Shown in pieces: positions 18,771 to 23,072 of a stretch of DNA of 64,000 nt (positions within the stretch are counted from its first letter, which is position 1; every line of letters starts with the position of its first letter). The notes beneath the pieces are model-generated. The model was given only the letters and a program-made list of their open reading frames with translations. It was not told where the DNA came from and ran no database searches. The stretch comes from Octopus vulgaris. Lineage: Eukaryota. The DNA lies in contig OX597816.1 of the NCBI GenBank assembly GCA_951406725.2, positions 112,902,001 through 112,966,000 on the forward strand, read 5' to 3'. The position numbers and the translations under genes are program-made.

Positions 18771-19822
18771 CCAAATAATTAATATTTAAAAATACCAAAA
18801 GACTCGTTGCGTATCTTATATTTCCGATCTGTACATATGCATGCACACACACACGCAGGTATACACACACACGCACACTACTTCATCACATGTATGTCAC
18901 CGATCGTTTTTACAAATTTATTTGTCCCTTTCAGTTTTACTGCGAAAAGTTTATTTTTCTCTCCTTTTGCATTCTATAAGAGTGTGCTCAACATGGCAAC
19001 GGTATGCCTCACTCGCCCACTCTCACTCATTGTCTGTCTGTCTATCTTTCTACCTATCTCTGTCTTATCTCCATATCGGTCTATCTACCTACCTATCTCT
19101 CTCACTCTGATTTTAACAGTGGACCATTTCCTGTTTCCTCACCCCCACCACCTACACACACACTCCTAGAGACACAAGCGCGCGCGCACACACACACACA
19201 CCTGATAGTATCCAAAGTGGTTTGAAACAACAGGTGTCAGGTGAACACTGTTATTTGAAGGAGTAAAAAAAAAGGATTTAAGTGGATATAATTTTTGGAT
19301 TCTATATTATTATTATTATTATTATTTATTTGCTCTGATTACAGATTACTGGTGTTACACTGATATTATCATATAACTCCGCCATTCAATTTTCTTTACT
19401 TTTTCTTTCTCTCATTTCTTTAAACAATATATCTCTATTGGTTTGTGCTGAAATTGTTAGATTAAACTACATTTTTCCCCACTTCAACCTCTGCTAAACA
19501 TGTTTCAACTGGCTGAGACAGCAAAATGCTGACTTGTCATTTCTTTCTCTTCAGCAAATAAAAGCTATCTGGTACTATATAACAAAACAACATTCTCTCT
19601 CTCTCTCTCACTGATCCTGGATATTTTGTGAGAAAACTGAATTGTTTAATCTAGCAGCATATTTTTAACATAAGAAGTTAACTGGCCATGCTTTCTCTCT
19701 ACTGAATTCATCATATTGCATTATGTAGTACCTAGGTAAACCCCATTTTTTATCAACGTATTTGAAATCCAGGGATAAGGTTCAGCTGGAATGCCAGTCC
19801 AAGGCCTGCAGAAAGAAGCACC

Positions 19823-20263
19823 GGATCTTTTCGGTTTGAACGGCAGTTTTTTAAAATAATTTCCACGTAACTAAACACTTTTAAACTTTGTATACTGGTA
19901 GAATGTGTTTATAAAACATCTTTTTCTCTTGGCTTTATTGAGAAAATTCTATAGTTTGTAAGATATTTGTTGTTTTTTTCCTTCAATTTCTGCAATTTCA
20001 ACTAATCAATGACGTCTATTGAGGGGAAAACATTCTGTACCGTATGAATATGTCCCTCGTTTAAGAAACAGATTGGGTTTATTTACATTTCTGAAGAAAA
20101 GAAGATACCCTTCCCCCCACCCCTAACCCTAACTAACCCTAACCCTAACTAACCCTAACCCTAAAACAGATTGAAATACAATAGATCGATACTAGTCATG
20201 ATTATGGGTGACAATTTCATATGACACCGCTAGAAAAAACTGTCGTTCAAACCGAAAAGATCC
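19823..20263. mobile_element. 441-bp non-autonomous TIR element with internal telomere-type repeats
   Basis: 30-bp TIRs ggatcttttcggtttgaacggcagtttttt (19823-19852) and 20234-20263, 1 mismatch; flanked by an 85-bp direct duplication. Confidence 0.9.
20121..20164. repeat. Interstitial (CCCTAA)n telomere-like repeat
   Basis: ccctaaccctaactaa x2 plus ccctaaccctaa. Confidence 0.9.
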
Positions 20264-20989
20264 AAACCCCATTTTATATCAACTTATTTGAAATCCAGGG
20301 ACAAGGTTCAGCTGGAATGCCAGTCCAAGGCCTGCAGAAAGAAGCACCAATAACAGGCCCGTCAGCATCAGATGGGGCTCTCCAAAAAAGGGGGGAGGTG
20401 GTGGTGGTGGTAATAAAATAAACCTTAGAACCTGCTTTAATTCTGAGAGGACCTCTCCTCCATACTCTCAGCATGTGAAAGCAACCTTGTTCCACTTTGC
20501 AAAATGTCTCTCAAAGACCCTGATGAGACTGTCTCTAGTTTTCCTTGATACAGAAACTTCCCGTTTCTAAAATGTTCATATTTAAATTGAAGCCATCCAT
20601 CATTTTGCCAATTATCTTCTAAACACTGACTTAATAATGAAACTGTTATTTAATTAAATCCTTCCAAATTCTTCATTATTTGCAAAATTAATGAAAACAC
20701 ATTGGCTGTATACTTTGTTAGAATAATGTCCATGAAAGAATTAAATGTTCCACAAGAATATCTTTTGTTTTGTTTTTTATTTTTATTTTGTCCTCTGTTT
20801 CTTCGACATGCAGCACTTACTTCCTATCTTTTGAACAAAATCAATCATTCTGTAAAAATTATGAATTATTAAAGCATTGGACAACCAACTATGTGCTTTT
20901 CAATCACATCCCTTTATGTTTTGAGTTCATATCCCACCCTAGTATACATACCATCTTCTTTCTTTGAAAGATGCCTAAAAGAGATATCT

Positions 20990-22035: not shown

Positions 22036-22437
22036 AAGGCGGCGAGCTGGCAGAAACAGTAGCATGCCGGGCAAAATGCTTAGCGGTATTTCCTCTGCTG
22101 TTACGTTCTGAGTTCAAACTCCGCCGAGGTCAACTTTGCCTTTCATCCTTTCGGGGTCGATAAATTAAGTACCAGTTCTGCACTGGAGTCAATGTAATCG
22201 ACTTAATCCATCTGTCTGTCCTTAATCCATCTGTGTTTAGCCCCTTGTGGGTAGTAAAGAAATAGGTATTTTGTCTGCTGTTACGTTCTGAGTTCAAACT
22301 CTGCCAAGGTCAATTTTGCCTTTCATCCTTTTAGGGTCAATAAACTAAGTACCAGTTACGCATTGGGGTCGATGTAATCGACTTAATCCCTTTGTTTGTC
22401 CCCTCTATGTTTAGCCCCTTGTGGGCAATAAAGAAAT
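22036..22437 (+). mobile_element. SINE family B with duplicated core and tail (dimer)
   Basis: Head-core-tail followed by a second core-tail; aaggtgact.t.aagg on both flanks (TSD-like). Confidence 0.9.
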
Positions 22438-23072
22438 AAGGTGACTGTAAAGGACCAGTAATTCCATGCGAAATACAGCAGGATTCAGAAAAATGGTGAC
22501 AATGTTTGAATGTTTGCACCACATATTTACACCATCATGCTACATTGACTTCTTATAAGCCAAAAAATTCAGTACTTCTGTCAATGCAATTACCTTTAAC
22601 TTAGAAGGGCTACATCCCAAAATGGTCTCACTCTAATGACAGACAGCAATAAAGGAATAAATGAAAAAATGTTTTCTTCAGGTTGAGGAGCAAATCCACC
22701 TACTTGCTGCAAAACATTTTATGTACAATATTTCTTTTCCTTGTTTTATAGAAATCTATCATCATAACCTCAACTAAATTCCGAAACCAACTACTTTTCT
22801 ATATATATGATGTATTCCTTCTTTGTTCAGCATTTCTAACATCTTCCTCTTGTTATCCTCTTCAACATACCACTCACCTGAGGGTTGTGTCATACCTTTA
22901 CATATTATTAGTATTATTATTATTATTATTAGTCCAGTTTTAAGATAGATCCTTGGTTATTCGTAAATCTTTCTCCAAACCTTTTATTCAAATCTTCTTT
23001 TTCATTGTGCGACATTGCATAAGCCCTGCAGTCTATGATAGGAACAATCCAAATTTAACAAGAACTGTCTGT

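What the first reader, a model, noticed from the sequence alone, without database searches (positions are those of the whole stretch)
19738..20348. TIR element flanked by an 85-bp direct duplication
Seen: a 441-bp element with 30-bp TIRs (GGATC...GATCC, 1 mismatch) sits exactly between two copies of an 85-bp unique sequence (19738-19822 and 20264-20348, 82/85 identical) that abut the TIRs with no spacer. Known: eukaryotic cut-and-paste transposons make TSDs of roughly 2-11 bp; long variable duplications are described for a few bacterial insertion sequences such as IS1549. Inference: either a transposon class with widely staggered or replicative integration that duplicates host DNA, or a one-off repair event at insertion.
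Basis: partly seen in the sequence, partly recalled or inferred. Interest (0 to 1): 0.75.

Follow-up and report, generated by a model that had tools for sequence, protein, structure and literature searches.

The report
Transposon's occasional long flanking duplications
This is one copy of a common small jumping element that normally duplicates 8 bases where it lands, but about 1 copy in 27 sits between two copies of a 21-264-base stretch of host DNA, likely because its two ends were joined at two separate nearby target sites, which would make the family a steady source of small duplications and deletions.

Summary
In detail: a 441-bp non-coding TIR element lies exactly between two 85-bp copies (82/85). 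The element belongs to a MITE family with at least 7,433 copies, and 320 of 430 copies examined have an ordinary 8-bp TSD. The long duplication is still no one-off: 16 of 429 other copies (3.7%) have 21-264-bp duplications at the TIRs, and 45 have intact ends but no TSD (3 map to 7-68-bp deletions). Long duplications are as old as the 8-bp TSDs (4.7% versus 4.7% mismatch) and do not form a subfamily. Pooled over 29 junctions, both ends score as complete 8-bp target sites (p about 1e-6). Four related organisms and one conspecific sample hold a single 85-bp copy without the element. So this is neither a wide-stagger class nor a host-repair join. Each end was likely joined in its own normal target capture, either by hybrid-end (alternative) transposition (0.5) or by uncoupled strand transfer in one reaction (0.3). 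The family is Merlin-like by its ends and TSD; no transposase partner was found. The scan's earlier notes showed nothing similar.

The parts
19738..19822 (+). Left copy of the 85-bp host segment; carries T19750, G19758 and T19776, the letters also found in the empty alleles of organisms A, B and D
19815..19822 (+). Inferred 8-bp target site B (GAAGCACC), joined to the element's left end
   Evidence: sequence; half-site scores -1.1 and 2.4 for this site alone, so the signature is shown only for the pooled set
19823..19852 (+). Left TIR, 30 bp, begins GG
19823..20263 (+). 441-bp non-autonomous element (MITE); longest stop-free stretch 38 aa; 3.6% from the family majority
20121..20164 (+). Internal CCCTAA-type short repeat, also seen inside other copies of the family
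20234..20263 (-). Right TIR, 1 mismatch to the left
20264..20271 (+). Inferred 8-bp target site A (AAACCCCA), joined to the element's right end; 77 bp from site B in the empty allele
   Evidence: sequence; half-site scores 0.7 and -0.2 for this site alone
20264..20348 (+). Right copy of the 85-bp segment; at all three differing sites it has the letters of outgroup organisms C and F

Best explanation
The element is an ordinary 8-bp-TSD MITE whose two ends were likely joined at two different normal target sites 77 bp apart, most likely because a copy already sitting at one site had one end re-joined to the second site on the sister chromatid or homologue (hybrid-end, alternative transposition). 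This would duplicate the 85 bp spanning both sites (77 + 8). The reciprocal product would be an element with intact TIRs, no TSD and a short deletion. Once made, the long repeats likely recombine: they expand to X-E-X-E-X (seen at 2 loci) or collapse to a single X without the element (the likely origin of the empty alleles in organisms A, B and D). Shown: family size, TSD spectrum, recurrence, target signature at both junctions, age, single-copy empty sites. Inferred: which transposase reaction made the two joins, the collapse, and the Merlin assignment.
For: (1) Spectrum of 430 elements: 8 bp 306, plus 14 at 6/8; 9 bp 11; 7 bp 8; 10 bp 2; 14 bp 1 (in a microsatellite); 21 bp or more 17 including the window; no TSD 45; one end truncated 25; 1 microsatellite false call dropped. 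Unselected long cases are 16 of 429 = 3.7% (95% CI 2.1-6.0). (2) A matrix from 215 perfect 8-bp sites scores 29 junctions of 16 long cases at 0.80 (half next to the element) and 0.79 (far half). Real sites score 0.78-0.95 and local background -0.95; p 1.6e-6 and 6.6e-7; both halves peak at offset 0 in a -8 to +8 slide. (3) Reciprocal class: paralogous repeats place deletions of 7 bp (L179, 27 of 34 paired hits), 11-12 bp (L250, 2 of 3) and 68 bp (L186, 1 of 1) at intact TIRs. The retained flanks of the 45 no-TSD elements score above background, p 1e-11. (4) Age: 59 of 1254 substitutions (4.7%) between long copies versus 4.7% in 320 8-bp pairs, Fisher p 1.0; element divergence 3.6% versus 3.7%. 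(5) The family inserts near itself: 35 of 354 elements have another end within 1 kb, against 0.5-1.1% expected. (6) Empty sites are single-copy (L036 paralogues). (7) Precedent: ends from sister chromatids or homologues act together in hybrid element insertion (PMC2775673, passages), which gives flanking rearrangements in P elements (PMC3744419, passages).
Against: The target signature shows two normal captures but not whether they came from two events or one. No locus had the diagnostic sister-target product E-X-E-X with an outer 8-bp TSD: both two-element cases were X-E-X-E-X (L090; L417). All 17 lengths are 264 bp or less, whereas neighbouring insertions spread out to 1 kb. That fits a tethered single reaction better, unless longer repeats are lost by recombination. 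No excess divergence from a second haplotype was detected (4.7% versus 3.8% at inner TSD positions, p 0.24), though the test is weak. No excision footprint was seen by eye at the outer ends of the long copies. Most no-TSD elements had no paralogue to map, and small offsets in old repeats are uncertain.
Confidence: 0.5

Rival explanations
1. Uncoupled strand transfer in one insertion: the transposase joins one end at site A, stays tethered, recaptures a second preferred site tens of bases away and joins the other end there. Strand-displacement synthesis or a fork then copies the DNA between the two nicks (duplication), or it is trimmed (deletion).
For: Predicts a complete target signature at both ends, the same age as 8-bp TSDs, both signs of offset, no footprints, and very short distances: 13 of 17 under 100 bp, none between 265 bp and the flank limit. 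No E-X-E-X product was found.
Against: Needs up to about 260 bp between nicks to be unwound. The short lengths can also come from loss of longer repeats: 2 of 4 cases of 137 bp or more had expanded and 0 of 13 under 100 bp. I found no paper showing this for a eukaryotic transposase.
Confidence: 0.3
2. Two copies inserted separately (or by a local hop) at nearby sites on different haplotypes; a crossover inside the element made one chimaeric element flanked by the region between the sites.
For: Predicts the complete signature at both ends and reciprocal deletions. Insertions cluster strongly, with one direct pair only 33 bp apart (L255), and recombination between copies occurs (L361 joins flanks of the two L132 elements).
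Against: Only 6 of 354 elements have a neighbour within 300 bp (one of them itself a long case), fewer than the long-duplication rate, and neighbour distances run to 1 kb. TIR arms in long cases are no more mismatched than in 8-bp cases (1.2 versus 1.4 of 24), which gives no sign of chimaeras, but this test is weak.
Confidence: 0.15
3. One reading: a transposon class with a wide or replicative stagger, or a one-off host repair at insertion.
For: Exact abutment, and lengths that overlap IS1549/IS1634 (PMC2266710, passages).
Against: 320 of 430 copies have 8-bp TSDs; long cases have no fixed length and are scattered on the tree (3 of 17 have a long nearest neighbour, 2.9 expected); a host-made join would not carry the target signature at both ends.
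Confidence: 0.05

Closest known systems
Merlin superfamily (IS1595/IS1016-related) non-autonomous elements (PMC8101967)
   Same: 30-bp TIRs within the 24-462-bp range, 5'-GG ends, TSD of 8 bp (11 of 430 with 9 bp). The genome holds 150 scored PF12762 matches, and three such elements have GG ends and 8-bp TSDs (L077, L080, L081).
   Different: No transposase-bearing element with this TIR was found (20 of 150 matches examined). Long duplications at about 4% are not mentioned in the passages I read.
P-element hybrid element insertion; Ac/Ds sister-chromatid and reversed-ends transposition (PMC3744419, PMC2775673)
   Same: Duplications and reciprocal deletions that start exactly at a TIR, with a new end joined at a second target site.
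   Different: Ac cases are 8 kb to over 5 Mb; the three genomic maize cases (116-1262 bp, 3 of 7611 hAT insertions) carry two elements. Here one element sits between the copies, lengths are 21-264 bp, and the rate is 16 of 429 (4 of 429 at 100 bp or more). The search criteria differ, so the rates are not strictly comparable.
IS1549 and IS1634 long variable direct repeats (PMC2266710)
   Same: A single TIR element flanked by variable direct repeats (8-514 bp there).
   Different: Bacterial, a different transposase family. Long repeats are reported as a trait of those two elements, whereas here they are a minority tail on an 8-bp mode. That 2008 paper says no mechanism had been proposed.
Long TSDs of LINEs: R9 (126 bp) and Dualen (median 900 bp) (PMC9977147)
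   Same: Long host duplications flanking one eukaryotic element.
   Different: Retrotransposons with separate nicks and no TIRs; this element has TIRs, no tail and an 8-bp mode.

Membership tests
Merlin superfamily | TIRs of 24-462 bp ending in 5'-GG | tested here: met
   30-bp TIR starting GGATC; definition from PMC8101967
Merlin superfamily | 8- or 9-bp TSD | tested here: met
   320 with 8 bp and 11 with 9 bp, of 430
Merlin superfamily | Autonomous partner with the same TIRs that encodes a DDE_Tnp_IS1595 transposase | tested here: inconclusive
   None of 20 of 150 PF12762 loci is enclosed by this TIR; no tblastn hit of the MITE frames to them; the Merlin fragment in L086 belongs to another, nested fold-back element. 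MULE or hAT partners were not searched.
IS1549/IS1634-type long-repeat makers | Long variable direct repeats as the usual insertion product | tested here: not met
   16 of 429 long versus 320 of 430 with 8 bp
Hybrid element insertion / alternative transposition products | Both junctions end exactly at a TIR and at a transposase target site | tested here: met
   Pooled target signature at 29 junctions; exact abutment in most cases, with L036, L308, L375 and L090 damaged or indel-shifted at one end
Hybrid element insertion / alternative transposition products | Reciprocal deletions at TIRs | tested here: inconclusive
   45 no-TSD elements; only 3 could be mapped to deletions of 7, 11-12 and 68 bp
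Hybrid element insertion / alternative transposition products | A resident element existed before the event (two-step history; exchange of flanking markers or an E-X-E-X product) | tested here: inconclusive
   Both two-element cases were X-E-X-E-X; marker exchange cannot be seen in one old assembly

The most novel reading that the evidence does not exclude
A Merlin/IS1595-type transposase in an animal genome routinely uncouples its two strand transfers, making two full target captures tens to hundreds of bases apart in about 4-8% of insertions. This would be a eukaryotic DNA-transposon counterpart of the IS1549/IS1634 long variable repeats, and the two-site signature supplies a testable mechanism for that unexplained bacterial phenomenon.
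Probability: 0.3. Interest if true: 0.68.

Novelty: new variant of a known kind. Interest (0 to 1): 0.45.

Why it matters
At 3.7% of at least 7,433 copies, this one family would have left about 280 (160-450) small duplications, and perhaps as many deletions, in this genome. TSD-based annotation would miss or mis-bound them. Long repeats likely let an element leave without a trace, so a clean 'empty site' in a relative need not be the pre-insertion state: here the empty alleles of organisms A, B and D carry derived letters from the left copy. The target-signature test at both junctions is a simple way to tell transposase-made from repair-made duplications, and it could be applied to IS1634 and other families.

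Tried and rejected
Nucleosome-gyre idea (a mode near 80 bp): rejected, because lengths are continuous from 21 to 264 bp. Lengths at 0 or 1 modulo 7: seen after the fact in the first sample, but only 1 of 3 new cases fit (21; not 61/76 or 167/171), so it was dropped. Subfamily effect: rejected. Pre-existing tandem repeat at the target: rejected for this locus and for L036. Control with other TIR families in the fetched DNA: too few copies. Autonomous partner: not found. Dropped rows: L113 (microsatellite false call); L436 and L448 (no two-ended element); L375 was left out of the matrix and mismatch tallies, as were one junction each of L090, L308 and L417. Run X17 (organism E): contig ends at 19806, state unclear. 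Absence of cover over copy 2's own junction in X1 and X16 contigs is not taken as evidence. The original HEI and IS1549 papers (PMC1207714, PMC1207712, PMC106989) were not held, so I rely on secondary passages. Literature searches for this structure in a eukaryotic TIR family listed nothing matching (titles and abstract starts only, in a partial library). Earlier scan notes: none by sequence; 8 of 237 shown by place and words, none relevant.

Full report
Observation. The 85-bp repeats, the 30-bp TIRs and the exact abutment are as described. The 85-mer was found only at these two places in the 2.8-Gb genome. The element has no stop-free stretch over 38 aa.

Family. The element is one copy of a large MITE family. 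An exact 24-mer of the TIR occurs 12,065 times. Six patterns that partition one subterminal 22-mer give 1511+1039+1064+944+1445+1430 = 7,433 copies, and a single-base variant adds 742. I examined 430 distinct two-ended copies, mostly from contigs C1 and C2: 372 with flanks of about 1.1-4 kb for most and 58 more with about 215-bp flanks. Classes: 8-bp TSD 306, plus 14 at 6/8; 9 bp 11; 7 bp 8; 10 bp 2; 14 bp 1; 21 bp or more 17; none 45; truncated end 25; one microsatellite false call. By chance, 7 or 8 matches of 8 occur in 0.4% of shuffled pairs. So the family's normal TSD is 8 bp.

Recurrence. Leaving out the window copy, 16 of 429 (3.7%, CI 2.1-6.0%) have a long direct repeat at the TIRs. 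Lengths are 21, 21, 23, 28, 35, 42, 49, 57-60, 60-63, 61/76, 64-70, 71, 137-153, 155, 167/171 and 254/264 bp. The second sample, drawn after the first result, gave 3 of 58. None lay between 265 bp and the flank limit. The long cases are not a clade (3 of 17 nearest neighbours long, 2.9 expected) and are as diverged as the rest (3.6% versus 3.7%). Their two copies differ by 59 of 1254 sites (4.7%), the same as 8-bp pairs (4.7%; inner six positions 3.8%). They therefore date from the family's active period.

Target signature. Perfect 8-bp sites show a palindromic preference: A at -3, 0 and +2, and T at +7, +9 and +12. I rebuilt the empty site for each long case and scored its first and last 8 bp as candidate target sites. 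Over 29 junctions, the half next to the element scored 0.80 and the far half 0.79. Cross-validated real sites score 0.78-0.95 and local background -0.95 (p 1.6e-6 and 6.6e-7). Both halves peak at offset 0, and the result holds for repeats of 35 bp or more (far half 0.69, n 21, p 7e-5). Each end of a long duplication thus looks like a whole normal target site. This argues against a host-made join and against a fixed wide stagger. It is a pooled result; the window's own two sites score only modestly.

Reciprocal class. Forty-five elements have intact ends and no TSD. Three could be mapped on paralogous repeats as deletions of 7, 11-12 and 68 bp. These imply site distances of 15, about 20 and 76 bp, inside the 13-256-bp range implied by the duplications. 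The rest had no usable paralogue. Some no-TSD cases have other causes, such as nesting (L144) or exchange between neighbours (L361).

Empty sites. Contigs from organisms B and D, and from sample X2 of organism A, join 19776 to 20303 and skip 526 bp = 441 + 85. In C and F one contig runs from the left flank through one copy into the right flank, and these runs have no cover over the element's right half. At the three sites where the copies differ, C and F have copy 2's letters, while the empty alleles of A, B and D have copy 1's letters and flanks within about 0.5% of the window. The simplest reading (inference) is an old duplication, three later changes in copy 1, and a collapse by crossover in the 46-bp identical 3' part. 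A long-lived empty allele that recombined with the filled one is the alternative. Expansions by the same kind of recombination are seen: L090 and L417 are X-E-X-E-X. These are 2 of the 4 cases of 137 bp or more, against 0 of 13 under 100 bp, so the upper tail is probably trimmed.

Mechanism. Three routes give two whole target sites around one element. (a) Hybrid-end transposition of a resident copy onto a nearby site of the sister or homologue, as described for P and Ac (PMC2775673 and PMC3744419, passages and one section read). It fits the reciprocal class and the strong local clustering of the family (35 of 354 within 1 kb, against 0.5-1.1% expected). (b) Uncoupled, tethered strand transfer in one reaction, which fits the very short lengths and the lack of footprints and of E-X-E-X products. 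(c) Crossover between nearby allelic insertions, limited by the scarcity of close pairs. I give 0.5, 0.3 and 0.15. The data here do not separate (a) from (b).

Classification. GG-ended 30-bp TIRs and 8-bp (sometimes 9-bp) TSDs meet the Merlin description (PMC8101967, passages). Merlin transposases are plentiful in this genome, and three coding elements have GG ends and 8-bp TSDs. No partner with this TIR was found among the 20 of 150 loci examined, so membership is likely (about 0.65, my estimate) but not shown. That the host is an octopus is my recollection from its repeats and agrees with earlier scan notes; nothing here depends on it.

Known and new. TE-abutting duplications are known: 3 of 7611 maize hAT insertions with a two-element structure, IS1549/IS1634 repeats of 8-514 bp with no mechanism as of 2008, and long LINE TSDs. 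I found no paper on a eukaryotic TIR family with a few-percent tail of 20-260-bp single-element duplications bearing a two-site signature (listings only, partial library). Verdict: real, recurrent, a new variant of a known kind; interest 0.45.

Noticed in passing
L044:1501-2341, L105:1111-1903; similar centres listed at C1:131050270 and C1:176813944: Inverted dimers of the MITE fused at their right ends, with two left TIRs outward; L044 has a 9-bp outer TSD. Either a composite subfamily or a recurrent fusion.
   Followed up: partly
L361 versus L132 (C1:115.84-115.87 Mb): L361's element has the left flank of one L132 element and the right flank of the other, with inverted sequence beside it: a local duplication plus inversion between two neighbouring copies.
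   Followed up: partly
L246:329-3212; part also nested in the MITE at L086 and L283: Young fold-back element with 1.3-kb arms 98.5% identical, each carrying a Merlin transposase fragment.
   Followed up: partly
L071:160-380, L072:2707-2972, L077, L080, L081: Other GG-ended families with 8-9-bp TSDs; L077, L080 and L081 are 1.6-kb Merlin elements, and L077 and L080 have open frames of 320 and 316 aa.
   Followed up: partly
L082, L040, L041 and others: Related TIR families with variant ends (GGATCTTTTCAC..., GGATCTTTTCCT...) and longer arms; one has an 8-bp TSD.
   Followed up: no
C1 0-90 Mb versus C1 165-200 Mb and C2 5-45 Mb: Family density looks very uneven along chromosomes, and copies cluster within 1 kb of each other 10-20 times more often than chance.
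   Followed up: partly
long-duplication lengths: 21, 21, 28, 35, 42 and 49 are multiples of 7; a fresh sample supported this in only 1 of 3 cases. Probably chance.
   Followed up: yes
window 22085-22438: Two tandem copies of a 180-bp unit, a repeat also common in the fetched loci.
   Followed up: no
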